NCBI GenBank assembly: GCA_035606195.1
Contig: DATNFX010000313.1
Coordinates: forward strand, 1-61,504
Direction of reading: 5' to 3'
Length of the DNA: 61,504 nucleotides
Source of the DNA: Pyrinomonadaceae bacterium
GTDB lineage: Bacteria > Acidobacteriota > Blastocatellia > Pyrinomonadales > Pyrinomonadaceae
Positions within the stretch are counted from its first letter, which is position 1, and every line of letters starts with the position of its first letter. Under the pieces are notes generated by a model. That model searched no databases, was not told where the DNA came from, and saw nothing but the letters and a program-made list of their open reading frames with translations. Positions 9,261-49,576 of this stretch are shown here, piece by piece. Both the position numbers and the translations under genes were made by a program.

Positions 9261-9281
9261 CATGAAAAAACAACATCGTAC

Positions 9282-9400
9282 TTTGTCTAATTTCAGACTC
9301 AGTCGACTTCACGACAGACGAGACATCTCATCTGATGTAGAAAGTTCGTGCTCTGACTAAACGGAAGACTCCAAACCCAGAGGATTCCCCTCCCTTACCC
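9282..9400 (+). promoter_or_regulatory. conserved leader element, copy A (paralog at 46995-47112), containing TGTCT-N6-AGACT
   Basis: Shares with copy B the blocks TTTGTCT.ATTTCAGACTCAGTC, TTCACGACAGAC, GTAGAAAG and GCTCTGACTAA, plus a weaker ..GAGGA.TC...CCTCCC tail. Same order and orientation in both copies. Confidence 0.6.
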
Positions 9401-9589
9401 CCATTAGTCAAAAAGCAGTTCAAGTAAATAAGTTTCGCTGTTTTTAACTGACGGAGACGAGTCTGTGGGATAGCTTTAGGTTTCATGGCCTGTTTATTCG
9501 GGCCCCCCATCACTCTCATGCCTAGATACCGTCACTCGCAAATCAGAAATAAGTCCAGGGCAGGAATGTAAGTAAGGAGGCCAACTCTG

Positions 9590-10114
9590 ATGATTCAGGA
9601 CGTCAGCGATAGACCAACTTGGTACGCAATCTGCACAAATCCTCAGCAGGAAGACCGAGCTTGCAGTAATCTGCGCGCGTGGGGAGTAGAATGCTTGAAC
9701 CCCAAAATTAAGGAGTCTCGACGTAATCATTTCACGGGCATCGCCGAAGTCATTTCCAAACCATTGTTCCCGCGTTACATTTTCTCACGCTTCGAACTGA
9801 AAGGCGCATTTCACAAGATCAGTTTTACCAGGGGTGTCCATCGTGTGGTAAGTTTCGACGGTCGGCCCACTCCAATTGATGAAGACGTGATCGCGTTGAT
9901 TCAGTCGCGCGTAGGCAGCGATGGATTCGTCAAGATAGGTGCGAGCTTGAAACCTGGCGATGTGGTGCGAGTCAAAGATGGTCCGTGGAAGGCCCTGACC
10001 GGTGTAGTAGAGCGTGAGTTCAAGACAAACGAGAGGATCACGCTCCTATTGCAGTCCATCAAGTATCAGAGTCGCCTGACAATTGAAAGTCATTGGGTTG
10101 AGAAGATCAGTTGA
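9590..10114 (+). CDS. NusG-paralog transcription antiterminator (RfaH/LoaP/UpxY/TaA-like)
   Basis: 174 aa. AAGGAGG RBS at 9574-9580. NGN-like N-terminus (WYAICTNPQQE...KPLFPRYIF) and KOW motif (LKPGDVVRVKDGPWKALTGVVE). Confidence 0.8.
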   Translation: MIQDVSDRPTWYAICTNPQQEDRACSNLRAWGVECLNPKIKESRRNHFTGIAEVISKPLFPRYIFSRFELKGAFHKISFTRGVHRVVSFDGRPTPIDEDVIALIQSRVGSDGFVKIGASLKPGDVVRVKDGPWKALTGVVEREFKTNERITLLLQSIKYQSRLTIESHWVEKIS

Positions 10115-16300: not shown

Positions 16301-19300
16301 GCCGTCGGTCCAGGTTGCCGCCGAATCTTGCGCGCTTCAGTCACAATTGATCCAGAGGCTCAAAGAATTCAGTTGCGCGAGTGGGGTCACTCCGTTCATG
16401 ACTCTGCTGGCAGTCTTTCAGATCCTGCTGCAACGTTACACCGGGCTTGATGATGTTCTCGTAGGCACTCCGGTCGCCGGCCGCACGCGCGTCGAGACCG
16501 AAACCCTGATCGGATTGTTCACGAACACACTCGTTCTTCGTACCGATCTTTCGGGTAATCCGACGTTCCTTGAATTGCTCGGTAAAGTGCGCGAAACGAC
16601 ACTCGAAGCGCACGCGCACCAAGACGTTCCGTTTGAAATGCTCGTGGAGGTGTTACAACCGGAACGAGACTTAACCCGCACGCCTCTTTTTCAGGTGATG
16701 ATTGTGTTTGATCCACCTCTGCCGGAGGTCGATCTTCCTGGGTTGCAACTGGAACAGGTCGAACTGCCTGCCGCCGCACCCAAATTCGATTTGATTCTCT
16801 TTCTGAAGGAACGGGACGGTGAACTGATCGCGCGCTTTGAATATGACACCACACGTCTCGATCAAAAAACCGTGCAGCGTTTGGCGAGGCATTTCCAGAC
16901 TCTGCTGGTGAACGCGCTCGCGCACGCAGAAACGCACATCTCGGATCTCGAGCTAATGACCAAAACCGAGGCGCAGCGTCTCCGCAACGATTGGAACGAT
17001 ACGTACAAACAGTACCCGCGAGAGGTTTGCTTGCATCAGCTATTCGAAGCACAGGCGGCGCGTACACCGGAGCTCGTTGCTTTAGTTGCCGGCCGCGAAT
17101 GCTTGAGCTACCGCGAGTTGAATCAGCGTGCTAATCGGCTGGCCCATCATCTTCGCGCGCTGGGTGCCGGCCCGGAGTCTTTGGTGGGCGTGCTGCTAAA
17201 TCGCTCAACTTCGCTTGTGGTGGCGTTGCTTGGAGTGCTCAAAGCTGGAGCCGCGTATGTTCCACTCGATCCGGACTACCCGCGCGAGCGACTGCGTTTG
17301 ATGATCGACGCAAACATCAATGTGTTGGTCACGCAGGAGAACCTGAAATACAACTTGCCACCATACAACGCCAGCGTCACTTGTCTGGATGCAGAGTGGG
17401 GAAGTATTGCGCTCGAGAGCGGCGACGATCCCGTGTGTTTGAACACACTTTCACAGCTCGCCTATCTGATCTACACCTCCGGTTCCACTGGTAAACCCAA
17501 AGCTGCGGCTATTGAGCACCGTAATGTCGTCACGCTCATGCATTGGGCGCGCGAGCTGTTTACCACGATCGAGCTCGGGGGTGTGCTGGCTTCGACGTCC
17601 GTCTGCTTCGATCTATCAGTGTTCGAGATCTTCGTTCCTCTGTGTTGGGGCGGCAAGGTGATACTCGCTGCGAATGCGCTTGAGTTACCAACGCTCAACG
17701 CAGCGAGTGAAGTGACACTAATCAATACCGTGCCGTCGGCCATGACCGAACTGATCAGGATAAGCGGTGTTCCCAAATCTGTGCGGACGGTAAATCTCGC
17801 CGGCGAGGCGCTCCATCATTCGCTGGTGCAGCGGATTTACGAATTGGAAGGCGTGGAGCGAGTGCTAAACCTTTACGGCCCTTCAGAAGATACAACTTAC
17901 TCGACCGGGGCGACGATCGACAGATGTGACTCTCAAGCGCCCACGATAGGCCGGCCAATTGCCAACACGCAGGCTTACATACTCGATATTCATCAGAAGG
18001 CACTGCCGATCGGCGTCGCCGGCGAGCTTTACGTCGCGGGCGATGGACTTGCTCGCGGTTATTTCAATAGACCTGATCTCACGGCGGAAAAGTTCATTCC
18101 AAATCCGTTCGCAGGCGCACCGGGCATGCGCATGTACCGCACTGGCGATCTCGCACGCTATTTGTCAGACGGGCAAATCGAGTTTCTTGGACGCAGCGAT
18201 CATCAGGTGAAGCTACGCGGCTTTCGTATCGAACTCGGTGAGATTGAGACGATGCTTCGCGAACACCCTGAGATACGCGACGCGGTAGTTATCATGCGTC
18301 AACAGAATGAAGATCAAGTCCTTGTGGCGTACGTGGTGAATGAGAGCGAGCAAGCGGTGACGCCGAAGAAGTTAAAAGCATATCTTTCCAAACGTCTTCC
18401 AAAGCACATGGTACCGGCGTTCATCGTACCCCTCGCGGCACTGCCATTAACTCCGAACGGCAAGGTCGATCGCCGTGCTTTGCCTTCACTTGAAACCAGC
18501 GATGAGGTTCAGGAAGACGCGATTGTCTTGCCGCGCACAGATATTGAATCGAGGCTGACGGGCCTGTGGTCACAATTGCTAAAACGGCGACAGATCGGAG
18601 TCCACGACGACTTCTTCGCGCACGGTGGGCACTCACTACTCGCCGTTCAACTCGTCTCACGCATTCGTGATGAGTTTCAGGTTGACCTGCCACTGCGCAG
18701 TGTCTTCGAGACAGCGACGATCGCTGAGCTTGCGAGGCTTGTCGAAAATGCATCGCTGTTTTCCTCGCCGATTCCCAAAATTCAGCGGTCGAAGCCGGCG
18801 CCGCTATCGTTCGCTCAGCAGCGGCTCTGGTTTCTGGATCGACTGGCGCCTGGAAGTTCCGCGTACAACATCTTCGGCGGTATACGTTTACGCGGCGAAC
18901 TGGACCAGACGGCATTTGCGCAATCCCTGAACGCCATCGTCGAAAGACACGAGATTCTGCGCACGGCGTTCACCACAGTTGACTGGCAGCCTGCGCAGGT
19001 CGTCTCCGCGGCGCAACCGGTCTCGCTCAGTTTCATAGATCTGCCTGGCGCGACCGAAGACGAGCGGGAGACGAAACTGCGAACACTGGCGAATGACGAA
19101 CTGAGTCGTCCTTTCAATCTGTCCGATGGGCCTTTACTGCGCTTGATTCTCCTGCGACTTAATGAAGAAGAACACGTGGCGCTGGTGACAATGCACCACA
19201 TCGTCGCCGATGGATGGTCCCTGAACATCTTTGTGAAGGAGTTCGCCGAGTTTTATCGAGCGTTCCACACCGGTCAACCCGCGCAGCTCGCGACATTGCC

Positions 19301-20213
19301 GATTCAATATGCCGACTATGCTCACTGGCAGCGCGCATGGTTTGATGACGAGAGGCGGGAAATTCAGCTCGATTACTGGCTTCGCACGTTGACAGGCACA
19401 CTGCCTGTGCTCGAGCTTCCAGTGGACCACGCTCGTCCATCTGAGCCGACTTTGCGGGGCGAGAAACTGGTTCATAAGTTTTCCGCTGAACTTTCCGAAA
19501 AGCTGCGCGAACTCAGTCGTCGCGAAGGCGCGACGCTCTTCATGGTCCTGCTGGCCGCGTTCAAAACGCTGCTATACCGATACACGAACCAGGACGATTT
19601 GATCGTCGGCACCGCGGTGGCCGGGCGTAATCGATCCGAGCTCGAGGGTCTCATCGGGATCTTCATCAACATGCTCGTATTGCGAACAAACGTCTCGGGG
19701 AATCCGACATTCGTTGAGTTGCTGCGGCGCGTGCGCGAAGTGATGCTCGAGGCTTACGCACACCAGGACGTGCCGTTTGAGCGACTCGTCGAGAAGTTAC
19801 AGCCCAATCGCACACTGGCCCGCTCGCCGTTCTTTCAGGTTGCCTTTGGGCTGCAGCACGAGCGGATCCAAAATCTAGCTTTACCGCGACTCGAGCTGAG
19901 TCCTGTCAGCTTCGACACGGATCTGGCGAGGTACGACCTGACGTTGTGGGTCTTTGAAAACGAAAGCGAATTGGAAGCGTCCTGGACGTTCAGCAAGGAC
20001 CTCTTCCGGCCGGAAACGATCGGGCTTATGAACCTGCGCTTTCAGACGCTGCTGCTCAGTGTCGTCAAAGAGCCCGAGCTACGGCTTAGTGAATTGGAAA
20101 TGCATTCCGACGAAGAGCGAAGACACGTCGCGATTCGCGAGCGTGAGTCGGAAGCATTGAGTGTAAGTAAGTTACTTTCCGTCAAACGGCGGGCCGTCAG
20201 AGTAGGGCAGTGA
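10356..20213 (+). CDS. lipoinitiation NRPS: FAAL-ACP-C-A-T-C-A-T-C
   Basis: Track start is TTG 10356; ATG 10362 is an equally plausible start. FAAL motif YTSGSTSAPKG (from 10908). Carrier serines at 12294, 15474 and 18633. C motifs HHIIVDF (12861), HHIVSDG (16050) and HHIVADG (19194). A cores YTSGSTGWPKG (~14289) and YTSGSTGKPK (17472). Ends in a C domain with no cis A-T. Confidence 0.95.
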   Translation: MSMSTNTLAIRERNAEVPSTSLTLVELLRNRARLHADRAAYIFLSDGITEETTLTWGDLDLQARAMGAWLQSLTARRERVLLLYPAGLEYITAFFGCLYAGVIAVPAYPPRQNRNLRRLHSLIIDAQPAVALTTRPILSRVINSFGKNPELAMLRWVASEDRPTAEPENWQAPEIAPTDLAFLQYTSGSTSAPKGVMLSHSNLVQNDRLIHKAFGQTEQSVIVSWLPLYHDMGLIGVVLHALSAGARCILLSPTAFLQQPFQWLQTISRYRATTSGGPNFSYDLCVRKITDEQRATLDLSSWSVAFNGAETVRAETMDRFAAAFAPCGFRREAFRPCYGLAEATLIVSARGESRAEENRPLVKHVCKTSLEQNRVIELGKKTPDARTVVTCGAPLCAREVIIANPDTLTGCAANEVGEIWVSSPSVAAGYWNNTEESARTFRAVPNGSKATYLRTGDLGFLLDGELFLTGRLKDLIITRGRNLYPQDIEGTVEQCDPSLRPGCGAAFSVTVESEERVVIVHEIEPRRTVELQSLITSIRQAISEEHEVVVYSVALVKAGMVPKTSSGKIQRKACRELFLEGGLAPIAYWLETPFGHKENLSDSLRPADSLNGAETLNWLRLQFAQVVNISAAEIDIHQPILRYGLDSLLATELTHRIESELGIAVPLTSLLESPTIEQLAASICGEAFVRDNEELVGPTPLTNTSSEYPLSFGQQSLWFQHRMAPDSAAYNLASALRLRGPLNAVALERAFASLVQRHAMLRTTFSQNSLAPRQQIHEEMPVCFEFADASSWSEAAVREYLLKEAEGPFDLSAGPLLRVNLLKRADDEHVLLVAVHHIIVDFWSLSVLMKELGVLYEAHRNGMDANLPPLQLQYTDYVRHEMEDLEGPRGKRLLEYWQQQLGGVLPLLNLQTDWPRPSLQTFRGSSQSFKVSAGLTHKLKELGRETGTTLYMVLLAAFQLLLHRYTQQKEFLIGSPVAGRNSAALASVMGYFVNPLVLRADISGDPSFIDLLARVRDTVLSALAHQDCPFALLVEHLEPTRDPSRSALFQHMFVMQQSAIAGVGGLSEQLGELAMEPIALDRHVSIFDLRLEVAQAEKTLIGSMEYNSDLFEATTIERMLGHFETLLQSIVANPEKCVSKQALLTPAENQQLLAEWNDTTVDRPDKALHQLIEAQVARTHNLVAVIFEDQKVTYAELDQRANALAAELRRRGVGPDVIVAICMERSIELVVALLGVLKAGGAYLPLDPDYPRDRLHFMIEDSRPPVLLTQKHVRHNLPNFAACQTLCVDDEVFPAAQINSEVTASNLAYVIYTSGSTGWPKGAMNTHAGIVNRLLWMQEQYELTSTDCVLQKTPFSFDVSVWEFFWPLLTGARMVLARPGGHQDPAYLAELIEREHVTTIHFVPSMLQMFLANADASRCDSLKRVICSGEALSNELQERFHARLGAELHNLYGPTEASVDVTYWKCERDARRAVVPIGRPIANLEIFLLDALGHPVPAGVVGELHIGGVGLGRGYFNRPELTAERFRPHPFSSKPGTQLYRTGDLGRYRPDGQIEFLGRVDQQVKLRGFRVELGEVEEALRAHTAVRDCVVTTAEILPGDMRLVAYVVHEGNASANSEELRRHLRVRLPEYMVPSYFVALETIPLLPNAKVDRRNLPPPSDLRLELTKEFVAPRNQIEKQLAAIWVEVLGLGQVGVDDNFFELGGHSLLAMQIVARINQLYLIDFPLRRMFETPTVAGIAQYLSAMRRADAKQEQQPSKRAPRQVDLQLSFAQERLWFLDQLDPVNSAYNMPIVLRIRGRLDLAVLERSVQEIIRRHEILRVSLTNVKGKPVQVIAPFEEWRLRVFDLFGTAKSDRWNEVIRYATKEAQRPFDLTQGPLLRAAAWQIDVNDYLLVLVMHHIVSDGWSLGVFANELKTLYKAYSDGRPSPLPDLSIHYSDFVHWQRERLASEAAAEQLDYWKRQLAGRLPALVLPGEHLRRPAPSVQVAAESCALQSQLIQRLKEFSCASGVTPFMTLLAVFQILLQRYTGLDDVLVGTPVAGRTRVETETLIGLFTNTLVLRTDLSGNPTFLELLGKVRETTLEAHAHQDVPFEMLVEVLQPERDLTRTPLFQVMIVFDPPLPEVDLPGLQLEQVELPAAAPKFDLILFLKERDGELIARFEYDTTRLDQKTVQRLARHFQTLLVNALAHAETHISDLELMTKTEAQRLRNDWNDTYKQYPREVCLHQLFEAQAARTPELVALVAGRECLSYRELNQRANRLAHHLRALGAGPESLVGVLLNRSTSLVVALLGVLKAGAAYVPLDPDYPRERLRLMIDANINVLVTQENLKYNLPPYNASVTCLDAEWGSIALESGDDPVCLNTLSQLAYLIYTSGSTGKPKAAAIEHRNVVTLMHWARELFTTIELGGVLASTSVCFDLSVFEIFVPLCWGGKVILAANALELPTLNAASEVTLINTVPSAMTELIRISGVPKSVRTVNLAGEALHHSLVQRIYELEGVERVLNLYGPSEDTTYSTGATIDRCDSQAPTIGRPIANTQAYILDIHQKALPIGVAGELYVAGDGLARGYFNRPDLTAEKFIPNPFAGAPGMRMYRTGDLARYLSDGQIEFLGRSDHQVKLRGFRIELGEIETMLREHPEIRDAVVIMRQQNEDQVLVAYVVNESEQAVTPKKLKAYLSKRLPKHMVPAFIVPLAALPLTPNGKVDRRALPSLETSDEVQEDAIVLPRTDIESRLTGLWSQLLKRRQIGVHDDFFAHGGHSLLAVQLVSRIRDEFQVDLPLRSVFETATIAELARLVENASLFSSPIPKIQRSKPAPLSFAQQRLWFLDRLAPGSSAYNIFGGIRLRGELDQTAFAQSLNAIVERHEILRTAFTTVDWQPAQVVSAAQPVSLSFIDLPGATEDERETKLRTLANDELSRPFNLSDGPLLRLILLRLNEEEHVALVTMHHIVADGWSLNIFVKEFAEFYRAFHTGQPAQLATLPIQYADYAHWQRAWFDDERREIQLDYWLRTLTGTLPVLELPVDHARPSEPTLRGEKLVHKFSAELSEKLRELSRREGATLFMVLLAAFKTLLYRYTNQDDLIVGTAVAGRNRSELEGLIGIFINMLVLRTNVSGNPTFVELLRRVREVMLEAYAHQDVPFERLVEKLQPNRTLARSPFFQVAFGLQHERIQNLALPRLELSPVSFDTDLARYDLTLWVFENESELEASWTFSKDLFRPETIGLMNLRFQTLLLSVVKEPELRLSELEMHSDEERRHVAIRERESEALSVSKLLSVKRRAVRVGQ

Positions 20214-20256
20214 ATTAGGATTCTCCGGGCAAGAGCTGCAGAGAAGAAATTCGAAT

Positions 20257-21294
20257 ATGAGTAGTCCGGCTCAATTCAAACGGGCGCGCAATGCTGTCCG
20301 GTTGATGTCGTCATCACTCGTCAGGCCCTACTACCTTGACGATGAGCGGAGAATGCCGCTGGTGATTGAACCCTCCTCGACCGACCTCGATCTCGTTTCA
20401 TGGGCCAGCGATCGCCGCCAGTTCATTGCGGACGAGTTATCACGTCACGGTGCGTTGTTGCTGCGCGGTTTCAGCATCCGCTCTGTGCAGCAGTTTGAGC
20501 AGTTTATTGACGTGACATCGGGTGGCGCGCTGCCGTACAGTGAACGCTCATCTCCACGCAGCCAGGTCAGTGGCAACATTTTTACGTCGACTGACTATCC
20601 CGCATCGGAAAAGATATTTCTGCACAATGAGCAGTCATATAACCTCCAGTTTCCTCTGAAGATTTATTTCTTTTGCCTCTTGCCCGCGGAAGTCGGGGGC
20701 GAAACGCCCGTGGCCGATACGCGACAACTTCTCGCTTCGATCCGGCCCGATATTCGCCGCCGCTTTTCAGAACAGGGCTACCTGTACGTTAGAAATTTCG
20801 GCAACGGCTTTGGGCTGTCATGGCAGGAGACCTTCCAAACGAGCAGCAAAACTGAAGTTGAGCAGTATTGTCGACAGCACCAGATCGGGTGCCAGTGGTT
20901 GGCCGGCAACCGATTAAGAACGTCGCAGCGACGCGACGCGATCGCCACACACCCGCGGACGGGAGAACAAGCGTGGTTCAATCATGCGACCTTTTTCCAC
21001 GTCTCGACTCTGGAACCGGTAATCCGTGAACGCGTGCTGGCGGAGTTTCCGGAAGTCGCTCTCCCAAACAACACCTACTACGGTGACGGCTCGCGTATTG
21101 AAGCTGAAACGATGGACCACCTTCAAGGCGTTTACCTGCAACACAAGATCCCCTTCACGTGGCAACAGTTTGATGTGCTGATGCTCGACAATATGCTCGC
21201 CGCGCACGGACGTGAAGCGTTCAAGGGACAGCGAAAAGTCGTAACCGGCATGGCCGATCCTAATCTCTGGAAAGATTGTAAAGCGAAAGACTGA
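20257..21294 (+). CDS. TauD/TfdA-family (SyrP-like) Fe(II)/2-oxoglutarate hydroxylase, paralog 1
   Basis: 345 aa. HxE facial-triad motif FLHNEQSY and distal LAAHGREAF. Size and genomic context are typical of hydroxylases acting on carrier-bound amino acids. Confidence 0.8.
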   Translation: MSSPAQFKRARNAVRLMSSSLVRPYYLDDERRMPLVIEPSSTDLDLVSWASDRRQFIADELSRHGALLLRGFSIRSVQQFEQFIDVTSGGALPYSERSSPRSQVSGNIFTSTDYPASEKIFLHNEQSYNLQFPLKIYFFCLLPAEVGGETPVADTRQLLASIRPDIRRRFSEQGYLYVRNFGNGFGLSWQETFQTSSKTEVEQYCRQHQIGCQWLAGNRLRTSQRRDAIATHPRTGEQAWFNHATFFHVSTLEPVIRERVLAEFPEVALPNNTYYGDGSRIEAETMDHLQGVYLQHKIPFTWQQFDVLMLDNMLAAHGREAFKGQRKVVTGMADPNLWKDCKAKD

Positions 21295-21299
21295 AAACT

Positions 21300-22325
21300 A
21301 TGAGCGGGAGTTTCGTAGCCGTCAGACGCAAGACGGTAAGGTTGAGTAGCGCGGAACTGGTAACGACCGGTTACCTCTCGGCTGGCGCCAGGAATCTTCC
21401 TTTAGTGATCCAGCCAAAGGTTGAGGGAGTTGACCTCATCGGTTGGACTGAATCGCAGCGCGCTCTTATCGAATCAGAGTTGTTGGGACATGGCGCCATC
21501 CTGTTTCGCGATTTCGGCGTCGAGTCTGAGACGCACTTCGAAAAGTTCGCCCGCACGCTCACTCCGGAATTGATCGACTATCTGGAGCGCGCCGCGGCAC
21601 GACGCGAGGTCGCCCCGAACATTTTTACCTCGACCGAATATCCGGCCGACCAGGCAATCCCGCTGCATCATGAGATGTCGTACTCGCACAACTGGCCCGG
21701 CAAGATTTACTTCTACTGCGCGCAACCAGCGTTAAGTGGAGGGGCAACTCCGATATCGAACGACCGCGTAGTGATCAACCGCATCGACCCGGCGATCAAA
21801 GAGCAGTTCAGACGGAAGAAGGTCATGTACGTCCGAAACTTCGGTGTGGGACTCGACCTTTCATGGCAGGAAGCTTTTCAGACTACTGATCGCGCCGTCG
21901 TGGAAAGATACTGCGCCGGCGTGCACATGACGTGCGAGTGGCGCGACGGGGATCGACTGCGAACGCGATCTGTGCGGCAGACGTTCGCGACTCATCCTGT
22001 TACTGGCGAGATTGTCTGGTTCAATCACGCACACATGTTCCACATCTCAAACGTGGAGCATTCGGCCCGCGAGGCTTTGCTGGCCCACTTCCGTGAAGAC
22101 GAACTGCCGCGAAATGCGTTCTACGGTGATGGTTCACCGATTGAAAGCTCAGTGCTCAGCGAGATTAGAGAAGTTTACGCTGAGGCGGCCGTACGTTTTT
22201 GCTGGGAGGAAGGCGACGTGCTTTTACTCGACAACTTCCTTACCTCACATGGTCGTGAGGCCTTCACCGGGCCTCGCCGGATCCTGGTTGCAATGGCCGA
22301 TCTCTTTACCCCGAGCACGGTCTAA
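21300..22325 (+). CDS. TauD/TfdA-family (SyrP-like) Fe(II)/2-oxoglutarate hydroxylase, paralog 2
   Basis: 341 aa. PLHHEMSY and LTSHGREAF motifs. Collinear similarity to the preceding gene, which ends 5 nt upstream. Confidence 0.8.
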   Translation: MSGSFVAVRRKTVRLSSAELVTTGYLSAGARNLPLVIQPKVEGVDLIGWTESQRALIESELLGHGAILFRDFGVESETHFEKFARTLTPELIDYLERAAARREVAPNIFTSTEYPADQAIPLHHEMSYSHNWPGKIYFYCAQPALSGGATPISNDRVVINRIDPAIKEQFRRKKVMYVRNFGVGLDLSWQEAFQTTDRAVVERYCAGVHMTCEWRDGDRLRTRSVRQTFATHPVTGEIVWFNHAHMFHISNVEHSAREALLAHFREDELPRNAFYGDGSPIESSVLSEIREVYAEAAVRFCWEEGDVLLLDNFLTSHGREAFTGPRRILVAMADLFTPSTV

Positions 22326-22383
22326 CCACAAAAGCCACATAACTCACATTAATTGAAGATCTAATCGGAAGGACAAGAGACAC

Positions 22384-23700
22384 GTGACAGAACAAGTCGT
22401 GGAGGGGTTCGAACTCTCGAGGCAACAACGGCGCATATGGTCTATGCAAGATAACGGCGACGCCTTTCAATCGCAGTGCGCGATCCTGCTCGAAGGCGCT
22501 TTGAATAAACGGGCGCTGCGTCAAGCCCTGCAAATAGCCATCGCGAGTCACGAAATTTTGCGCACTTCGTTCCGCTCGTTGTCCGGCATGAAGTTTCCCA
22601 TCCAGGTGATTAGCGAAGATGCAGATGCACCAGCTCTAAATGAGTGTGATCTGAACTGCGAACTCGAAGAACTCCTGTTGGAAGAACTTCGTACGCCTTT
22701 CGATCTGGATGCCCCCTCTCTGATTCGCTGCAAGCTACTGAATCTTTCGCAGGACAGGCATGTATTGATTTTGGGGCAGCCGGCGTTGTGCGCCGACGCC
22801 GAATCGCTCGTTCAGTTGTTTATCAAGCTGGGCCGCTTCTACGCATCATCTGTAACGGGCAAGGCCATTGTTGAGGAGCCCGTGCAGTTTGTGGACTTTT
22901 CAGAGTGGCAACGCGAACTGCAGACCTCCGCGGATGCGGCAGCCCAGAGAGAGTACTGGAGCCGGCAGATCACGACGGCAAACCCGGATTCACTGGTGCT
23001 TCCGACGGAAAGTAGTGAACGAACGGAAAATTTTGCGCCACGCCCGTTTAATTTCGAGATCCCCCGGGACATATCACAAAGCAGCGAAGCTCTCGCGCTT
23101 GCGCTTGATGCGTCAATCGAGACGCTGTTGTCGTCATGCTTACAAATCCTGCTGTGGCGTCTCACCGGACAGTCAGAAATTGTGACGGGCCATTTTTCGA
23201 ATGGCCGGCGGATCTCACACCTGCGTGAATGTCTCGGCCCGGCCGGCGATTATTTACCTCTTGCTGGTCGCTTCGATCGAAAGCTCCGATTCTCCGAGGT
23301 GGTGAAGCGCAACCATGAGGCAGTAAAAGCAAATCGCATCCACGAAGAATACTTCTCGCAAACAGACGAGAGCCAACTTCCTTTGCTCGCGAAGTTCGAT
23401 TTCATGGAATGGCCCAAACCATCGCTGGCTGCTGACGTGCGTTTCTCTCTCCTCAGAGTTTATAGCACCGCCGATCGGTACAAAGTGAGACTTTCCGTGA
23501 CGCGCCGGGATTCGACGCTAATGGCCGTGCTTCACCACGACGAGGCTTTGTATACATCGGAGTTCGCCGAACGCTTCGCGGGTCAATTCACAGCTCTCAT
23601 GCAAAGCGCATTGGCGCAGCCGGATTCGTCGATTGCCGATCTTGATGTGCTCGGCGAAGAGGAACGCCGGTTGGTGATCGATCAGTGGAACGATACCGCC
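22384..23700 (+). other. condensation-like domain lacking both catalytic histidines
   Basis: Collinear with C domains (N-terminal LSRQQRRIW), but the DRHVLILGQPALCADAESL segment replaces ..HHxxxDGWS. The 3' boundary is approximate. Confidence 0.7.
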
Positions 23701-26457
23701 ATCGAATGCCGCCGGGACGTCTGCTGGCACGAGTTGTTTGAGGAGCAGGTGGAACGCACACCTGGCGCGACCGCGGCGATCTTTCGCGAAGAAGAAATCA
23801 GCTTTACTGAACTGAACGCGCGCGCAAATCAGTTGGCCCATTACCTGCGATACTTGGGGGTCGGCCCGGAAACCAAAGTGGCGCTTTGCGTTGAGCGCAG
23901 CGTCGAGCTGATAGTGGGACTGCTCGCGATCCTCAAAGCCGGTGGCGCGTACGTGCCGCTGGACATTGCACAGCCGCCGCAGCGGCTCGCGAGGATGTTT
24001 AAAGATGCAAATGTAAGTGTGGTACTCACGCAGAGCGAGTTCGCGGAATCCCTCCCGCCACATAACGCAGCCGTCGTTTGCCTCGACGACAGCGCAGCGC
24101 TATTGGCAGACGAGAGCACCGATAACCTTGTCGCGACGGCGACTGCTGAAAATCTCGCTTATATCATCTACACATCGGGCTCAACGGGCACACCGAAGGG
24201 TGTGATGGTCGCTCATAGCTCCGTGGTGAACCTGGTGTTGGCATTGCGGCGCACGGTCTATGCGTCCTCGTCAACGTCTCTACGCGTCGGAGTGAATGCG
24301 CAAATCACGTTCGACGCATCAGTCAAGCAGTTAATACAACTGCTGTTCGGTCATACGCTGGTGTTCATCCCGCAGGAAGTGCGACTGACCGGCGACGCGT
24401 TGCTGGCATACACGGCGGAGAAGCAGGTGAACGCACTCGATTGCACGCCTGCGCAACTGCAATTGATGCTGGCTGAGGAGCGGCAGTTCAAATCTTTCCC
24501 CTCGTTGATGCTGGTCGGCGGTGAAGCGATCGACCACGATCTCTGGCATCGCATTGCCGCACAAACCGAACTCAGTTGCTACAACCTTTATGGACCAACG
24601 GAATGCACCGTGGATACCACTATCGCGCGCGTCGAAGGCGAAACGCCAACGATCGGACGCCCGATCGACAACGTGCGGGTCTACCTGCTCGACGAGCAGC
24701 TACGTCCGGCGCCCATCGGTGTGCGCGGTGAGATCTGCGTCGCAGGCGACGGGTTGTCGCGCGGTTATCTGCATCGACCAGACAAAACTGCGGAGAAGTT
24801 CGTCCCCGATGCATTCTCGAATATCTCCGGCGCGCGGTTGTATCGCACCGGCGACATGGCGCGGTTCCGATCTGACGGCCAGTTGGAATTTTTAGGCCGG
24901 GTAGACCATCAGGTGAAGCTGCGCGGTGTGAGAATCGAGCTCGGAGAAATCGAAGCTGCAATAAAACAAAACCACGCAGTGCGCGATGCCGTCGTACAAA
25001 TGCATGAGGACGCGCCGGGTTGCGCTCGGCTCGTCGCGTACGTCGCAGTGCACCGCCGGCACTTGCCTGTGGTGAGTGGCCGCGCACGATATCAATTGCC
25101 AAACGGCATGGCCATTCTGCATCAGAACAAGAACGAGACCGATTACCTCTACCATGAGATTTTTGAGCACCGGACCTACCTCAAGCATGGCATTGAATTA
25201 TCCGGGGAAGCCTGCGTCTTCGACGTCGGAGCAAACATCGGGCTCTTCACTTTGTTTGTTCTCGAACACTGCTCCAACGCGCGGATTTATGCCTTCGAGC
25301 CCATCCAACCGATCTTCGAAACGCTGAAGATCAATGTCGATCTTTACGGCGGGAAGGTGAGGCTCTTTCCCTTCGGTCTTTCCGCGAAAGCCGGTGTGGC
25401 CGCGTTTACGTTCTACCCGCATTACTCGATGATGTCTGGGTTAAGCGACTACGCGCTCGCTCGCAACGACGTCGAGGTGGTGAAGCGATACTTACTGAAC
25501 CAACAACGCGAGGGCACAGAAGGGGCCGACTTCCTGTTGCAGCATGCAGAGGAGTTTTTGCCTGAACGCTTCGTGGGCCACACGCACCAATCTCAACTCC
25601 AAACACTTTCAGAAGTTATCCGTGCGGAGAAAATTGACCGCATCGATCTGCTGAAGATCGACGTCCAGCGCGCCGAACTTGACGTGCTCAATGGAATCGA
25701 TGACAGCGATTGGGACAAGATTCAGCAAGTCGTGTTGGAGGCCCACCAGGAAGAAGGTGAGACCACGCATCGACGCCTGGATCAAATCTCTAGCCTGCTC
25801 GAGCGTCATGGATTCAAGGTAACGGCGGAACAGGACGATCTCTTGAGCGGAACCGATCGCCACAACGTCTACGCGAAACGAAGCGGCAGCCAAAAAAATA
25901 CATACGTTAGTATCGATCGCGACACGGCTCAACCATCACGCCTCGTTCCGCTCGTTTCGGCGACCGATCTTCGCCATTCACTGCAACCCCTTTTGCCCGA
26001 GTACATGATTCCGTCTGCGTTTGTCCTGCTCGAAGAGTTGCCACTGACACGCAACGGAAAGATAGATCGTGCAGCGTGCGCGGCTTTGGATGTCCGGCTT
26101 ACACCGGAAAACACGGCCTACGTCGCTCCACAGAACGAGATGGAAAAGATCGTCGCCCGCATCTGGCAGGAAGCACTCGGGGTCGAGCGGGTCGGGGCGC
26201 ACGACAACTTTTTCGAGTTGGGTGGCCATTCACTACTGCTGGCCCACGTTCATAACAGGCTCGTAACCACTCTCGACAGGCAAATCTCCATGGTCGAGAT
26301 GTTTCAGCACCCGACTGTCAGCACTTTGGCCCAACGCCTGAGTCAGCATGGACCACGCCCGCGTTCACTGCAAGCCGCGCACGAACGAGCGGCCCGTCAA
26401 AAGGAAGCAATGGAGCACCAGAAGATGATGATGAGGAAGGCAGGCACGGCTGTATGA
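22384..26457 (+). CDS. NRPS module: (His-less C-like)-A[FkbM-type methyltransferase insert]-T
   Basis: GTG start. QPALCAD (22777-22797) occupies the position of HHxxxDG. A core YTSGSTGTPKG (~24169). FkbM-like VFDVGANIGLFTLF sits between the A8 region (RLVAYVAV) and A9/A10 (LPEYMIPSAFVLLEELPLTRNGKIDR). T serine at 26230. Confidence 0.95.
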   Translation: MTEQVVEGFELSRQQRRIWSMQDNGDAFQSQCAILLEGALNKRALRQALQIAIASHEILRTSFRSLSGMKFPIQVISEDADAPALNECDLNCELEELLLEELRTPFDLDAPSLIRCKLLNLSQDRHVLILGQPALCADAESLVQLFIKLGRFYASSVTGKAIVEEPVQFVDFSEWQRELQTSADAAAQREYWSRQITTANPDSLVLPTESSERTENFAPRPFNFEIPRDISQSSEALALALDASIETLLSSCLQILLWRLTGQSEIVTGHFSNGRRISHLRECLGPAGDYLPLAGRFDRKLRFSEVVKRNHEAVKANRIHEEYFSQTDESQLPLLAKFDFMEWPKPSLAADVRFSLLRVYSTADRYKVRLSVTRRDSTLMAVLHHDEALYTSEFAERFAGQFTALMQSALAQPDSSIADLDVLGEEERRLVIDQWNDTAIECRRDVCWHELFEEQVERTPGATAAIFREEEISFTELNARANQLAHYLRYLGVGPETKVALCVERSVELIVGLLAILKAGGAYVPLDIAQPPQRLARMFKDANVSVVLTQSEFAESLPPHNAAVVCLDDSAALLADESTDNLVATATAENLAYIIYTSGSTGTPKGVMVAHSSVVNLVLALRRTVYASSSTSLRVGVNAQITFDASVKQLIQLLFGHTLVFIPQEVRLTGDALLAYTAEKQVNALDCTPAQLQLMLAEERQFKSFPSLMLVGGEAIDHDLWHRIAAQTELSCYNLYGPTECTVDTTIARVEGETPTIGRPIDNVRVYLLDEQLRPAPIGVRGEICVAGDGLSRGYLHRPDKTAEKFVPDAFSNISGARLYRTGDMARFRSDGQLEFLGRVDHQVKLRGVRIELGEIEAAIKQNHAVRDAVVQMHEDAPGCARLVAYVAVHRRHLPVVSGRARYQLPNGMAILHQNKNETDYLYHEIFEHRTYLKHGIELSGEACVFDVGANIGLFTLFVLEHCSNARIYAFEPIQPIFETLKINVDLYGGKVRLFPFGLSAKAGVAAFTFYPHYSMMSGLSDYALARNDVEVVKRYLLNQQREGTEGADFLLQHAEEFLPERFVGHTHQSQLQTLSEVIRAEKIDRIDLLKIDVQRAELDVLNGIDDSDWDKIQQVVLEAHQEEGETTHRRLDQISSLLERHGFKVTAEQDDLLSGTDRHNVYAKRSGSQKNTYVSIDRDTAQPSRLVPLVSATDLRHSLQPLLPEYMIPSAFVLLEELPLTRNGKIDRAACAALDVRLTPENTAYVAPQNEMEKIVARIWQEALGVERVGAHDNFFELGGHSLLLAHVHNRLVTTLDRQISMVEMFQHPTVSTLAQRLSQHGPRPRSLQAAHERAARQKEAMEHQKMMMRKAGTAV
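25051..25980 (+). other. FkbM-family methyltransferase domain embedded in an A domain (between A8 and A9)
   Basis: VFDVGANIGLFTLFVLEH...YAFEP...FGLS...LLKIDVQRAELDVLNG is flanked by A-domain core motifs. Boundaries approximate. Confidence 0.8.
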
Positions 26458-29400
26458 GTAACAACGACGTGATCGGAGCAACGCAAGGCATCGCTATCGT
26501 CGGCCTGGCCGGCCGGTTTCCGCGTGCCGGGACGGTCGCGGAGTTTTGGCGAAATCTCGTTGCAGGCACGAAGACCATTTCGTTCTTTAACGACGAGGAG
26601 TTGCGTGGGGAAGGAATTGCAAAGCACGTCATCGCCGATCCTTCTTACGTAAAGGCCAAGGGAATGCTCGAGGACATCGAGTGGTTCGACGCCCCGTTCT
26701 TTGGCATCACACCCAAGGAAGCCGAGCTGATGGATCCGCAACAGCGCCTTTTTCTTGAGTGTTGCTGGACCGCGCTTGAGGTTGCAGGCTACGACGCGGA
26801 ACAGTTCGCCGGCGCGATCGGGCTGTTTGCCGGCGCCAGCATCAACAGCTATCTGCTGCTGAATCTCTTATCAAATACGGGCCTGATCGATCGGACCGGC
26901 ATACTTCAGTCGTCAATTCCGAATCGCACCGATCATCTGACCACCAGGTCAGCCTACAAGCTGAATCTGAAAGGCCCTGCGGTTACGGTCCAAACGGCTT
27001 GTTCGACGTCGCTGGTCGCGGTGCATCTTGCTTGTCAAAGCTTGTCCAGTTACCAGTCAGACATTGCGCTAGCGGGCGGAGTTACGATCAGCGTTCCCGG
27101 TAAGTCGGGTTACTACTATCAGGAGGGCGGCGTGCTTTCGCCCGATGGTTACTGTCGTCCTTTCGATCACAAAGCGAAGGGCACTGTTGTCGGCAATGGA
27201 GTTGGAGTAGTCGTTCTCAAACGGCTTGTGGATGCGCTTGCTGATGGCGACTCGATTCACGCAGTAATCAAAGGTTCGGCGATCAATAACGACGGCTCGC
27301 TGAAGGTCGGCTACACGGCGCCAAGTCTCGAGGGCCAATTAGAAGTGATCGCCACGGCACAGGCGGTGGCGGCCATCAGTCCTGACACAGTCTCCTATGT
27401 TGAGGCACACGGGACCGGTACTGCGCTCGGAGATCCGATCGAGATCGCGGCGCTCACCGAAGTTTTCCGCGCGAGCACGGACCGCAAAAACTTCTGTGCA
27501 ATCGGATCGGTAAAGGCAAACATCGGACATCTCGACGTAGCTGCCGGTATTGCGGGCCTGATCAAGACAACACTCGCGCTTGAACACGGCGTGATCCCGC
27601 CAGTGCTGAATTTTGAGCAGCCAAATCTGCAGATAGATCTCGCGACCAGTCCTTTTTACATCAACCCTGCGCCAGTTGAGTGGAAGAGTAACGGCAAACC
27701 GAGACGCGCGGGCGTCAGTTCATTCGGCATCGGCGGCACAAATGCGCATGTCGTGCTTGAAGAAGCGCCGGCACGCGCCAAATCTGTTGCGTCACGTCCG
27801 AGTCAGTTGCTGTTGCTCTCCGCCGCGACCTCTTCGGCGCTGGAAACTGCAACCGCGAATCTCAGTACGTACCTTGAAAAGAACACCACTGTAGATCTTG
27901 CGGACGTTGCCCACACGCTTGCGCTTGGGCGCAAAGCTTTTCGTCATCGCCGCGTGCTTGCGGCCCAGGATGTGGGAGATGCAGTCCAGGCGCTAAATGC
28001 GCTTGATCCGCGGCGCGTCATGACCGCGTTGCAGGAACCACGAAACCGTCCGGTGATGTTCATGTTTCCGGGCCAGGGGGCGCAGTTCGTCAACATGGGG
28101 CGCGAGCTTTACGAAACAGAAGTTACCTTCCGCGCCGAAGTCGATTGTTGCGTTGAGCAACTGCGGCCGCACCTTGGACTCGATCTGCGCGAGATTCTCT
28201 ATCCGAAAGCCGGCGCGCTTGCATGGAGTGCAGAACAGTTGCGACAGACTGCGATCACGCAACCGGCACTTTTCGTCACGGAATATGCGCTCACGAAATT
28301 GTTCATGGAGTGGGGCGTACATCCTGCCGGAATGATCGGTCATAGCATCGGCGAGTTTGTCGCCGCCTGTCTCGCCGGGGTGCTTTCGTTGCCCGATGCC
28401 ATTGCTCTCGTAGCAAGCAGAGGCCGCCTGATGCAATCGGCTGAAAAAGGCGAGATGCTAATTGTGCCACTACCTGAAAGCGATCTTCAGGCGCTGCTTG
28501 GTCCGGACCTCTCAATCGCGTCCGTAAATGCTCCTTCACTTTGCGTAGTCGCTGGTCCAACAACTGCGATCGCCCGCCTGGACGAGACGTTGAGGGCCCA
28601 GGACGTGTCGTGTCGTCGCCTGGAAACTTCCCACGCGTTTCACTCGCAAATGATGGATCCGATTCTCGACGCGTTCCGGTCTGAAGTCGATCGAGCGAAG
28701 CTCAAGGCTCCCACAATCCCTTATGTTTCCAACCTGACGGGTACCTGGATCCGCGCCGAAGAGGCCACTGATCCGAACTATTGGGTAAGACAATTAAGGC
28801 AGACGGTGCGTTTCGGCGAAGGCGTGCTGCGGTTGTTCGAACAGCCTGATTCGATCCTCCTTGAAGTTGGACCAGGGAAGATGCTGATGACGATCGCGCG
28901 CTGGCATCCCGCAAAAACTGCCGGGCAGACAGTTTTAACTTCGCTGTCCGCTCCGAATGAACCCGCCTCGGATCTGATCGCGCTGCAAAACAGTTTGGGC
29001 AAACTTTGGCTCGCCGGCGTGAATATCAGTTGGCGCGACTTTTATGCGCACGAGCGGCGGCAGCGTATCTCCCTGCCAACTTATCCGTTTGAGCGTCGTC
29101 GTTACTGGATCGACCCTGCGAACCAAAACACGGCGTCGGCCGCTGAGTTTAACCTGCGGAAAAAATCTCATATCAGCGAGTGGTTTTACGTTCCCGGCTG
29201 GAAGAGTTCGGCGTTACCGGCACGTCTGGAATCAATCGCTGCGGATAAAAAAGACTCCGCATGGGTGTTGCTTGTCGACGAGTGCGGCATGGGCCAACGT
29301 CTCGCAGAGAAACTCAAGACCGCTGGTTGCGAAGTGATAACCGTGCCCGCCGGCGATCAATTCGCCGCGCGTGGTGAGAGAGAATTCGTAATCGCGCCGT

Positions 29401-48657: not shown

Positions 48658-48736
48658 ACCGGATCTTCTCTGAGGCTTGCACCAGAGAATAAGCACCTTC
48701 ATGCAATCGAACCCAAAGCTAAAGGAGCCGCTCTCG

Positions 48737-49558: not shown

Positions 49559-49576
49559 GCACGATCAGATAACGAG

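What the first reader, a model, noticed from the sequence alone, without database searches (positions are those of the whole stretch)
19194..22797. Back-to-back C domains across a gene boundary, with two hydroxylase genes inserted between them
The first megasynthase ends in an intact C domain (HHIVADG at 19194) plus only a C-A linker. Two TauD/SyrP-like genes follow. The next megasynthase then opens with its own C-like domain, in which HHxxxDG is replaced by QPALCAD (22777-22797), so both histidines are gone. The peptide bond to the next residue is therefore probably made in trans by the terminal C of the upstream protein, and the His-less domain is catalytically dead.

There are precedents for dead C-like domains acting as recruitment platforms for trans oxygenases. 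One is the glycopeptide X domain, which recruits P450s. Another is the interface domains described next to Asp beta-hydroxylases in siderophore NRPSs. Here the candidate clients are encoded immediately upstream.
Basis: partly seen in the sequence, partly recalled or inferred. Interest (0 to 1): 0.7.

Follow-up and report, generated by a model that had tools for sequence, protein, structure and literature searches.

The report
His-less interface domain, AMB-like module
The odd "second condensation domain" is a conserved, non-catalytic interface domain that opens a split glutamate module built like the Pseudomonas methoxyvinylglycine (AMB) pathway, so it is a new example of a known design, not a new kind of machine.

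Summary
One NRPS ends in an intact C domain (HHIVADG). Two TauD genes follow. The next NRPS opens with a complete C fold in which both histidines are gone (PALCADA).

This domain belongs to a monophyletic, always His-less clade. [quoted passage not shown] In 36 of 39 cases a canonical C lies directly upstream, with 0, 1 or 2 TauDs between.

The module activates Glu, not Asp, and carries an embedded FkbM O-methyltransferase. The upstream module has an Ala-type code. The gene order C | TauD | TauD | I-A(Glu)-MT-T matches ambB-ambC-ambD-ambE. The two TauDs fall in two old clades; the second is AmbD-like (C4 hydroxylase) and the first AmbC-like (C3).

The likely route is 3-OH,4-OMe-Glu made on the carrier, joined in trans by the upstream C, then passed to a PKS module.

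Whether the interface domain recruits the hydroxylases is untested. Published assays disagree: it is essential in glidomide and dispensable in myxoglucamide. TauDs are fused to the upstream C in 10 of 40 cases and never to the interface domain.

The parts
17040..18760 (+). Last A-T pair of the upstream NRPS (O1 module 2). It supplies the donor residue. Specificity code DLFNNALTYK (Ala-type).
   Evidence: Custom HMM map. Code extracted against GrsA. The Ala assignment is from my memory of code tables. AmbB, the counterpart, loads L-Ala (PMC10880069).
18777..20138 (+). Terminal canonical C domain of O1 with an intact HHIVADG (19194-19214). Proposed to make the peptide bond in trans to the carrier domain of the next NRPS.
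   Evidence: Pfam PF00668 at aa 2815-3256. Motif confirmed. Scores 672 bits on the canonical-C HMM against 275 on the I-like HMM.
20139..20213 (+). C-terminal tail of O1 (...KLLSVKRRAVRVGQ). It is conserved in the L008 ortholog. It resembles the N-termini of both TauDs and the C-TauD linker of fused homologs. It may be a relic of gene fission or a docking element.
   Evidence: Sequence comparison. The proposed function is inferred only.
20257..21294 (+). TauD-family Fe(II)/2-oxoglutarate dioxygenase H1, clade A (HNE motif). AmbC-like; inferred C3 (beta) hydroxylase of carrier-bound Glu.
   Evidence: PF02668, E 1.9e-41. HxE...H...R residues invariant. Clade A in the NJ tree, together with all C-fused TauDs and those next to Asp/Asn modules. 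The AmbC fragment best matches first-position clade A enzymes, but identity to H1 itself (46%) barely exceeds identity to H2 (44%).
21300..22325 (+). TauD-family dioxygenase H2, clade B (HHE motif). AmbD ortholog; inferred C4 hydroxylase of carrier-bound Glu.
   Evidence: PF02668, E 4.1e-46. 46% identical to H1. The 11 best matches of the AmbD fragment are all clade B: 56% to H2 against 47% to H1. Clade B occurs only next to Glu modules. AmbD hydroxylates C4 (PMC8968710).
22384..23700 (+). Interface (I) domain: a complete C fold without the catalytic histidines (PALCADA at 22780-22800). It sits at the very N-terminus of O4.
   Evidence: PF00668, 161 bits. Alignments. AF2 model pLDDT 86.4, pTM 0.88. 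Foldseek TM about 0.8 to canonical C domains. I-like HMM 536 bits against 189 for canonical. Clade with CcsI.
23734..26100 (+). Glu-type adenylation domain (code DAKDLGLVDK), interrupted by an FkbM-family O-methyltransferase (about 25174-25870).
   Evidence: Pfam AMP-binding at aa 452-796, Methyltransf_21 at aa 947-1145, AMP-binding_C at aa 1193-1226. Code. MT region 46% identical to P. aeruginosa AmbE fragments.
26134..26340 (+). Carrier (T) domain of O4. This is where Glu would be hydroxylated, methylated and acylated.
   Evidence: PF00550 at aa 1257-1319.
26454..33242 (+). PKS module KS-AT-KR-DH-ACP with a C-terminal FMN luciferase-like monooxygenase. It takes the chain from O4.
   Evidence: Pfam. 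TIGR04020, 492 bits, for the LLM. The same cassette follows I-A-MT-T in L008, and also in L011 and L015 without the LLM.

Best explanation
The stretch is one NRPS elongation module split over four genes, built on the plan of the AMB (methoxyvinylglycine) pathway.

Proposed steps:
1. O4 (I-A-MT-T) loads L-Glu on its carrier domain.
2. H1 (AmbC-like) hydroxylates C3 and H2 (AmbD ortholog) hydroxylates C4 of the tethered Glu.
3. The FkbM domain embedded in the A domain O-methylates the 4-OH.
4. The intact terminal C domain of O1 joins the upstream lipo-Ser-Ala chain to this modified Glu in trans.
5. The PKS O5 extends the chain by one malonate unit.

The N-terminal domain of O4 is an interface domain. 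It is a folded pseudo-condensation domain that has lost both active-site histidines and does not make the bond. It most likely holds the A and T domains and provides the docking surface between the two proteins and the free hydroxylases.

Shown here:
- the domain order
- the conserved loss of the histidines
- clade membership with CcsI
- colinearity and homology with ambBCDE
- two TauD clades

Inferred:
- the regiochemistry
- the order of the steps
- trans condensation
- the docking role
For: Domain map and motifs.

The His-less state is ancient and maintained:
- 42 of 42 instances lack the second His and 41 of 42 keep the Asp.
- The clade is monophyletic against 81 canonical C domains, with bootstrap 34/40 and a stem 8 times the median internal branch.
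- The fold is complete.

Context rule:
- A canonical C lies directly upstream in 36 of 39 cases, with 0 (12 cases), 1 (18) or 2 (6) TauDs between.
- 36 of 40 TauDs are followed by an I-like domain, directly or after a second TauD.

Link to a characterised siderophore:
- CcsFGH ends in a C-TauD fusion.
- CcsI starts with an I-like domain carrying TLPALCAD, scoring 392 bits against 197 for the canonical-C HMM, and 31% identical to the window domain (PMC12628792).

Link to AMB:
- Glu code DAKDLGLVDK and an upstream Ala-type code.
- MT region 46% identical to P. aeruginosa AmbE fragments.
- In the P. aeruginosa amb locus, the order is A-T-C, TauD, TauD, then an N-terminal region that matches the I-like profile.
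- For that region, hhalign gives 93.5% probability and E 2.4e-7 against the I-like profile, but 2.8% against canonical C. Its motif is APAFVVD.
- AmbD is a clade B enzyme like H2, and AmbC resembles first-position clade A enzymes.

Published biochemistry:
- AmbC and AmbD hydroxylate C3 and C4 of Glu on T1, the MT methylates the 4-OH, and the AmbB C domain condenses (PMC10880069, PMC8968710).
- The MxgA C domain condenses onto MxgB in trans (PMC13638107).

Conservation elsewhere:
- A syntenic ortholog exists in a Pyrinomonadaceae MAG (L008).
- The same 2xTauD + I-A(Glu)-MT-T + PKS cassette occurs in Holophagales and Polyangiaceae.
Against:
- The I domain of MxgB is dispensable in vitro (PMC13638107).
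- TauDs are never fused to the I domain, only to the upstream C.
- The I domain evolves faster than its neighbours. Between the window and L008 it is 45% identical, against 64-84% for the other parts. Across loci it averages 33% against 50% for the A cores, and is lower in 99% of 496 pairs. This fits a loosely constrained scaffold.
- The AmbC to H1 assignment is weak (46% against 44% to H2).
- A second Glu-MT module (O6 module 1) without an I domain could also be a client of one of the TauDs.
- Specificity codes were read against a GrsA sequence and code tables recalled from memory.
- The amb locus that was available is a frameshift-ridden assembly.
Confidence: 0.7

Rival explanations
1. The His-less domain is only a structural leftover. 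It keeps the usual C-A platform for the A domain after the module was split, and plays no part in bringing in the hydroxylases. The hydroxylases instead work with the upstream C domain.
For: - The MxgB I domain is dispensable for coupled hydroxylation and condensation (PMC13638107).
- TauDs are fused to the upstream C in 10 of 40 cases and never to the I domain.
- The I domain diverges much faster than neighbouring domains.
- The O1 tail resembles the TauD N-terminus, which suggests the C and TauD were once fused.
Against: - The domain is retained as a full-length fold across at least four phyla, with conserved blocks such as RHEILRT, FSEWQN and GRxYEEL.
- The glidomide I domain is indispensable for GlmF (cited in PMC13638107).
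- 12 of 39 I-like domains occur with no TauD between them and the upstream C, and all but one of these also open a new protein. This points to a role at the protein-protein junction.
Confidence: 0.2
2. The domain has a new catalytic job, for example the dehydration or decarboxylation that turns 3-OH-4-OMe-Glu into a methoxyvinyl group. It would use residues other than the lost histidines.
For: - No CmodAA domain follows the O4 carrier, unlike in AmbE, so another catalyst for the elimination is needed.
- Asp138 and Arg275 are invariant in the family.
Against: - The same domain type precedes Asp, Asn and Gln modules, and the beta-OH-Asp module of cyanochelin B, where the hydroxyl is kept (PMC12628792).
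- AMB-like loci L029 and L034 have both an I-like domain and a separate low-scoring C after T1.
- The CmodAA signature [K/R]SVLLAAH is absent from this domain but present in O6_C3 (PMC11342130).
- The conserved Asp-Arg pair is a structural feature of C domains (my own knowledge).
Confidence: 0.05
3. The two TauDs do not act on the same residue. One serves the O4 Glu and the other serves the second Glu-MT module at the start of O6. The product would then carry two singly hydroxylated, methylated Glu residues and no AMB-like unit.
For: - The window has two Glu-type A domains with embedded FkbM domains: O4 and O6 module 1, code DAKDLGVVDK.
- Single-TauD loci of either clade exist next to Glu-MT modules.
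Against: - The ordered pair, clade A then clade B, directly upstream of one I-A(Glu)-MT-T recurs in loci with only one visible Glu-MT module. These include the AMB-like L029, L034 and L038, and the amb locus itself, where both enzymes act on one Glu (PMC8968710).
- O6 module 1 has an ordinary C with the second His retained (YHGLVDG) and no I domain.
- A separate PhyH-family hydroxylase is encoded downstream.
Confidence: 0.1

Closest known systems
[quoted passage not shown]
   Same: - Same gene order: A(Ala)-T-C | TauD | TauD | N-terminal His-less domain-A(Glu)-FkbM MT-T.
- MT region 46% identical.
- AmbD is orthologous to H2.
- The AmbE 'Q' region matches the I-like profile specifically.
- Condensation in trans by the upstream C is shown in vitro (PMC10880069, PMC8968710).
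   Different: - AmbE continues with CmodAA-T2-TE and releases Ala-AMB. Here the carrier hands over to a PKS module with KR, DH and an FMN monooxygenase, inside a large lipopeptide line.
- The AmbE Q region is far more diverged, at 28 bits on the I-like HMM.
Myxoglucamide MxgA/MxgB (Cystobacterineae sp. MCy9003; PMC13638107)
   Same: - FAAL-ACP-...-C followed by a 2-oxoglutarate dioxygenase.
- Then I-A(Glu)-PCP, then a PKS with KR and DH plus an FMN monooxygenase.
- Beta-hydroxylation of carrier-bound Glu is coupled to trans condensation by the upstream C.
   Different: - Mxg has one dioxygenase, fused to the C domain, and no O-methyltransferase.
- The window has two free dioxygenases of different clades and an embedded FkbM domain.
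- No Mxg sequences were on hand, so the similarity is by architecture only.
Siderophore interface domains with Asp/His beta-hydroxylases (Reitz et al. 2019 PNAS), e.g. cyanochelin B CcsFGH/CcsI
   Same: - The CcsI N-terminal domain falls in the same clade, carries the same LPALCAD motif, and follows a C-TauD fusion.
- The published definition is a non-canonical C-family domain proposed to position the hydroxylase and the tethered amino acid.
   Different: - The substrate here is Glu, not Asp or His.
- There are two hydroxylases.
- There is an added O-methylation.
- The cluster shows no siderophore hallmarks in the window.
- The Reitz reference sequences and the antiSMASH profile were not available.
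Glidomide I domain with stand-alone dioxygenase GlmF (Chen et al. 2022, as cited in PMC13638107)
   Same: A free-standing 2-oxoglutarate dioxygenase acts on a carrier-bound amino acid next to an I domain.
   Different: - The I domain was shown to be indispensable there; nothing was tested here.
- The substrate is His.
- No sequence comparison was possible.
Glycopeptide X domain (Haslinger et al. 2015)
   Same: A C-fold domain without condensation activity that recruits trans oxygenases. The structural match to the model is TM 0.78.
   Different: - The X domain sits in the last module and recruits P450s.
- The family profile matches it no better (E 1e-50) than it matches ordinary LCL domains (E 6e-67).
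- It represents an independent loss of function.

Membership tests
NRPS interface (I) domain | Belongs to the condensation-domain superfamily with a complete fold | tested here: met
   PF00668 at aa 10-429, E 4e-47. AF2 pLDDT 86.4, pTM 0.88. Foldseek TM 0.77-0.86 to solved C domains.
NRPS interface (I) domain | Lacks the catalytic HHxxxDG histidines | tested here: met
   PALCADA replaces HHIVADG. The same holds in 42 of 42 relatives for the second His.
NRPS interface (I) domain | Sits directly before the A domain of a module whose tethered amino acid is hydroxylated by a TauD-family enzyme, with a separate canonical C serving that module | tested here: met
   Window map. Canonical C upstream in 36 of 39 relatives. 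36 of 40 TauDs are followed by an I-like domain.
NRPS interface (I) domain | Clusters with reference interface domains, apart from other C subtypes | tested here: inconclusive
   Monophyletic with the CcsI N-terminal domain of the cyanochelin B cluster against 81 canonical C domains, bootstrap 34/40. However, the Reitz 2019 paper, its reference set and the antiSMASH 8 profile were not available, and NCBIfam has no specific model.
NRPS interface (I) domain | Physically positions the hydroxylase and the carrier-bound substrate | not testable with these tools
   No multimer prediction or experiment was possible. Published results conflict (PMC13638107).
AMB-type oxyvinylglycine pathway | Two distinct TauD enzymes (C3 and C4 hydroxylases) encoded between the two NRPS genes | tested here: met
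   H1 and H2 are 46% identical and lie in separate clades. AmbD groups with H2's clade and AmbC with first-position clade A enzymes; that second link is weak.
AMB-type oxyvinylglycine pathway | Glu-activating A domain with an embedded FkbM O-methyltransferase, preceded by the 'Q' domain | tested here: met
   Code DAKDLGLVDK. Methyltransf_21 lies inside the A domain. 46% identity to P. aeruginosa fragments. The Q region matches the I-like profile.
AMB-type oxyvinylglycine pathway | Dehydrating CmodAA domain, second carrier and TE directly after T1, releasing Ala-AMB | tested here: not met
   A PKS module follows the O4 carrier instead. The window is therefore not an AMB cluster, although the first half works like one.
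CmodAA (dehydrating C) domain | D-clade C domain with DG retained and the [K/R]SVLLAAH block before motif C5 (PMC11342130) | tested here: not met
   The O4 domain has ADA and ...SIETLLSSCLQ... at those places. The profile match to AmbE-CmodAA is weak, E 6e-27 against 6e-67 for LCL domains. The signature is found in O6_C3 instead.
Glycopeptide X domain | Located in the final module before the TE and partnered with cytochrome P450s | tested here: not met
   The domain is N-terminal, is followed by A-MT-T, and has TauD enzymes as neighbours.

The most novel reading that the evidence does not exclude
The window, from an uncultured Acidobacteriota lineage close to Pyrinomonadaceae, joins two known logics that have not been seen together. 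The first is AMB-type 3-hydroxylation, 4-hydroxylation and 4-O-methylation of carrier-bound Glu. The second is myxoglucamide-type PKS extension, decarboxylative dehydration and FMN-dependent alpha-oxidation. The product would be a lipopeptide carrying a methoxyvinyl (enol ether), alpha-oxidised gamma-amino acid. In this reading the interface domain is the hub that lets two regio-distinct hydroxylases and a foreign C domain take turns on one carrier. The same would explain how AmbC and AmbD are recruited through the unexplained AmbE Q domain.
Probability: 0.3. Interest if true: 0.6.

Novelty: new member of a known kind. Interest (0 to 1): 0.35.

Why it matters
- The finding gives a correct reading of a module that automated annotation would call "inactive C". 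It predicts Glu, two hydroxylations and one O-methylation.
- It links the unexplained N-terminal Q domain of AmbE to the interface-domain clade. That makes the open question of how AmbC and AmbD are recruited (PMC8968710) testable.
- It shows that a 2xTauD + I-A(Glu)-MT-T + PKS cassette is conserved in Acidobacteriota and Myxococcota. This points to an undescribed enol-ether building block.
- The counts of fusions and the faster divergence of the I domain add comparative data to the current disagreement about whether I domains are needed.

Tried and rejected
Ideas tested and dropped:
- I first suspected the O4 domain was the dehydrating CmodAA of AmbE. The literature shows that is AmbE's second C (PMC11342130, PMC10880069), and the signature is absent here.
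- Kinship with the X domain is rejected on position, partner and profile scores.
- PDB entries 8z0q and 8xjz looked like possible I-domain structures. 8z0q is HtmB2-CT and I found no paper for either entry. I found no solved interface domain.

Sources that were unavailable or unhelpful:
- The Reitz 2019 PNAS paper is not held.
- The protein-homolog searches returned only fragments under about 750 aa, and the window's own O4 was not among them.
- The genome scan with the MT alignment did not place P. aeruginosa in its top 80. I reached the amb locus through fragment P0152 instead, but that assembly (CP083355.1) is full of frameshifts. AmbC, AmbD and AmbE were therefore compared as fragments.
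- NCBIfam has no model for this domain or for these TauDs.

Technical problems:
- The first tree script timed out.
- A second script gave NaN distances and was rerun with a cap on distances.

Sampling caveat:
- The related loci were collected through the MT domain or through similarity to the window domain. The substrate tallies (mostly Glu) are therefore biased.
Full report

The window is a hybrid NRPS/PKS gene cluster.
- ORF 10356-20213 (O1) reads FAAL-ACP-C-A-T-C-A-T-C and ends 29 residues after its last C domain.
- Nucleotides 19194-19214 encode HHIVADG.
- Two PF02668 TauD genes follow at 20257-21294 (H1) and 21300-22325 (H2). The gaps are 43, 5 and 58 nt.
- ORF 22384-26457 (O4) begins at once with a Condensation-family match at aa 10-429. 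It scores 161 bits, against about 380 bits for each canonical C of O1.
- O4 continues with an A domain interrupted by an FkbM methyltransferase, then a carrier domain.

In an alignment of all ten C domains of the window, MHHIVADGWS lines up with GQPALCADAES. Pro replaces the first His and Ala the catalytic second His, while the Asp stays. O4's is the only C-like domain in the window without the second His. O6_C1 has YHGLVDG.

**The domain is folded and belongs to a His-less clade**

AlphaFold2 with 18 sequences gives a confident model (pLDDT 86.4, pTM 0.88). Foldseek places it on canonical C domains at TM about 0.8, with Txo2, TycC and DhbF on top. The X domain scores 0.78 and AmbE-CmodAA 0.76.

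The closest proteins in the large protein database are only 29-37% identical. They come from Nostoc and Pyrinomonadaceae. All start at the protein N-terminus, are followed by an A domain, and carry LPALCAD-type motifs.

I built an HMM of this family and one of canonical C domains, and scanned about 85 fetched loci.
- 42 I-like instances were found.
- None has the second His and 41 keep the Asp.
- In an NJ tree, 40 I-like domains form one clade against 81 canonical C domains from the same loci. Bootstrap support is 34/40 and the stem is 8 times the median internal branch.
- A profile of the family still matches LCL-type domains best (Txo1, E 6e-67). It matches the X domain (1e-50) and AmbE-CmodAA (6e-27) less well.

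The clade is therefore a separate offshoot, not a relative of either the X or the CmodAA type.

**The context rule**

- In 36 of 39 non-redundant cases a canonical C lies directly upstream of the I-like domain.
- No TauD lies between them in 12 cases, one in 18, and two in 6.
- The three exceptions sit at contig ends or behind an insertion element.
- Only one I-like domain shares a reading frame with the upstream C, so the I domain almost always opens a new protein.
- Of 40 TauDs, 36 are followed by an I-like domain, directly or after a second TauD.
- Ten TauDs are fused to the upstream C and none is fused to the I domain.

**Link to a characterised interface-domain system**

A tblastn search of plasmids hit plasmid 2 of Leptolyngbya sp. 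NIES-3755, which carries the cyanochelin B cluster (PMC12628792). There, CcsFGH ends in C-TauD. The beta-OH-Asp module CcsI starts with a domain that scores 392 bits on the I-like HMM against 197 on the canonical one. Its motif is TLPALCAD.

The published description of interface domains is a non-canonical C-family domain proposed to position the hydroxylase and the tethered residue (Reitz 2019). I know it only through citing papers, because the paper itself is not held. Membership in that family is therefore supported by architecture, motif and the CcsI link. It was not checked against the reference set.

Specificity codes read against GrsA were as follows. The code assignments are from my own knowledge.

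| A domain | Code | Assignment |
|---|---|---|
| O4 | DAKDLGLVDK | classical Glu code |
| O6 module 1 | DAKDLGVVDK | classical Glu code |
| last A of O1 | DLFNNALTYK | Ala-type |

The MT insert is 46% identical to P. aeruginosa protein fragments. One related fragment is named L-glutamate-[L-glutamyl-carrier protein] ligase by its source.

The literature gives these facts about the AMB pathway (PMC10880069, PMC8968710, PMC4357302):
- AmbB is A(Ala)-T-C.
- AmbE is Q-A(Glu)-MT-T1-C2-T2-TE, with Q of unknown function.
- AmbC hydroxylates C3 and AmbD hydroxylates C4 of Glu on T1.
- The MT methylates the 4-OH.
- The AmbB C domain then condenses.

The window's C | TauD | TauD | I-A(Glu)-MT-T is the same order.

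**The amb locus itself**

I reached a P. aeruginosa amb locus (L088, CP083355.1) through a fragment hit. The assembly is frameshifted, but the order is clear: A, canonical C, TauD, TauD, a weak C-like region, A, MT, T, C.

The 342-residue frame covering most of the AmbE N-terminal region was compared with both profiles.
- Against the I-like profile, hhalign gives 93.5% probability, E 2.4e-7, with motif APAFVVD and the FSEW and GR..E...GPFA blocks.
- Against a canonical C profile it gives 2.8% probability.

The AmbE Q domain thus looks like a diverged interface domain. I do not know whether this has been stated in print.

**The two TauDs are not redundant**

- H1 and H2 are 46% identical.
- Both keep the invariant HxE...H...R residues.
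- In a tree of 39 TauDs from the loci, they fall in two deep clades.
- In every two-TauD locus the first gene is clade A (HNE motif) and the second is clade B (HHE motif).
- Clade A contains all C-fused enzymes and those next to Asp and Asn modules.
- Clade B occurs only next to Glu modules.
- The 11 best matches of the AmbD fragment are all clade B: 56% to H2 against 47% to H1.
- The AmbC fragment best matches first-position clade A enzymes of AMB-like loci. Its identity to H1 (46%) barely exceeds that to H2 (44%).

With the published regiochemistry, H1 is the likely C3 hydroxylase and H2 the likely C4 hydroxylase.

**Conservation and downstream logic**

L008, from a Pyrinomonadaceae MAG, is a syntenic ortholog. 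Identities to the window are shown below.

| Part | Identity |
|---|---|
| KS | 78% |
| AT | 74% |
| KR | 68% |
| DH | 70% |
| ACP | 84% |
| LLM | 79% |
| H1 | 67% |
| H2 | 72% |
| A | 65% |
| MT | 67% |
| terminal C | 64% |
| I domain | 45% |

- Holophagales (L011) and Polyangiaceae (L015) loci keep 2xTauD + I-A(Glu)-MT-T + KS-AT-KR-DH-ACP.
- Bradyrhizobium (L034) and a deltaproteobacterial MAG (L029) keep the AmbE-like I-A-MT-T-C-T form.
- Across 496 pairs of modules, the I domains average 33% identity against 50% for their A cores, and are the lower of the two in 99% of pairs.

The PKS with KR and DH and a MupA-family FMN monooxygenase parallels the myxoglucamide route. In that route, beta-OH-Glu is extended, decarboxylatively dehydrated to a vinyl group and alpha-oxidised (PMC13638107). 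With a 4-OMe group present, the same steps would give a methoxyvinyl unit. That is inference only.

**Mechanism and its weak point**

The most likely reading is a split module. Glu is tailored on the O4 carrier by H1, H2 and the MT. The O1 terminal C joins it in trans. The I domain is a non-catalytic scaffold at the protein junction.

The claim that the I domain recruits the hydroxylases is open. It is essential in glidomide and dispensable in myxoglucamide (PMC13638107). My counts show TauDs tethered only to the upstream C, and the I domain is the least constrained part.

The O1 tail (KLLSVKRRAVRV) is conserved in L008. It resembles the N-termini of H1 and H2 and the C-TauD linker of fused homologs. 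This hints that the upstream protein, not the I domain, may hold the enzymes.

**Verdict**

The finding is a correct observation of a known design: an interface domain with trans TauD hydroxylases, on the AMB plan. It occurs here in a new host lineage and a new pathway context. It is a new member of a known kind, and of moderate interest.

Noticed in passing
window 20139-20213; L008 about 3130-3226: The C-terminal tail of O1 (KLLSVKRRAVRVGQ) is conserved in the ortholog (KLMSVKRRSIRR). It resembles the N-termini of H1 (FKRARNAVRL) and H2 (AVRRKTVRL) and the linker of C-TauD fusions. It may be a fission relic or a docking strand.
   Followed up: partly
L088 (P. aeruginosa CP083355.1) 8053-9078: The AmbE N-terminal 'Q' region of unknown function matches the I-like profile (hhalign 93.5%) and not a canonical C profile (2.8%). 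Its motif is APAFVVD. The assembly has many frameshifts, so a clean sequence should be checked.
   Followed up: partly
window 40714-42030 (O6 third C domain; KSVLLAAH at O6 aa 2676): This C domain carries the [K/R]SVLLAAH block described for dehydrating CmodAA domains. A dehydroamino acid is therefore likely in the product.
   Followed up: partly
window 43852-46896: O6 ends with C-T-C and has no A domain for the last carrier. The carrier must be loaded in trans or used for off-loading chemistry.
   Followed up: no
window 47656-54338: Four tailoring genes follow the NRPS: an ornithine-carbamoyltransferase-like protein, a PhyH/ectoine-hydroxylase-like dioxygenase, a protein with only the N-terminal lantibiotic-dehydratase domain (PEARL-like, compare PMC11212132), and an M28 peptidase.
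   Followed up: partly
window 58137-59636: The A domain of the second FAAL-led NRPS has a strong G-over-C bias at third codon positions (0.38, against about 0.04 in the other A domains). It shares the code DLFNNALTYK with O1_A2 at only 51% identity. The segment may have been acquired or recombined.
   Followed up: partly
window 54687-61504: A second FAAL-ACP-C-A-T protein is followed by another C domain that runs off the window end. The cluster therefore has two lipid-loading starts.
   Followed up: no
window 32151-33242: The PKS O5 ends in a MupA/Atu3671-family FMN luciferase-like monooxygenase after its ACP (TIGR04020, 492 bits). The next protein starts with a C domain that has YH instead of HH. 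This recalls the C-monooxygenase protein MxgE.
   Followed up: partly
window 8526-10114: A Crp-family regulator and a NusG-like protein lie just upstream of the first NRPS gene. They are possible cluster-specific transcription or antitermination factors.
   Followed up: no
L001 11387-12571 (Nostoc indistinguendum MAG): An I-A module is cut by a DDE transposase gene and is followed by a second, complete I-A-T copy. This looks like a duplicated and disrupted interface module.
   Followed up: no
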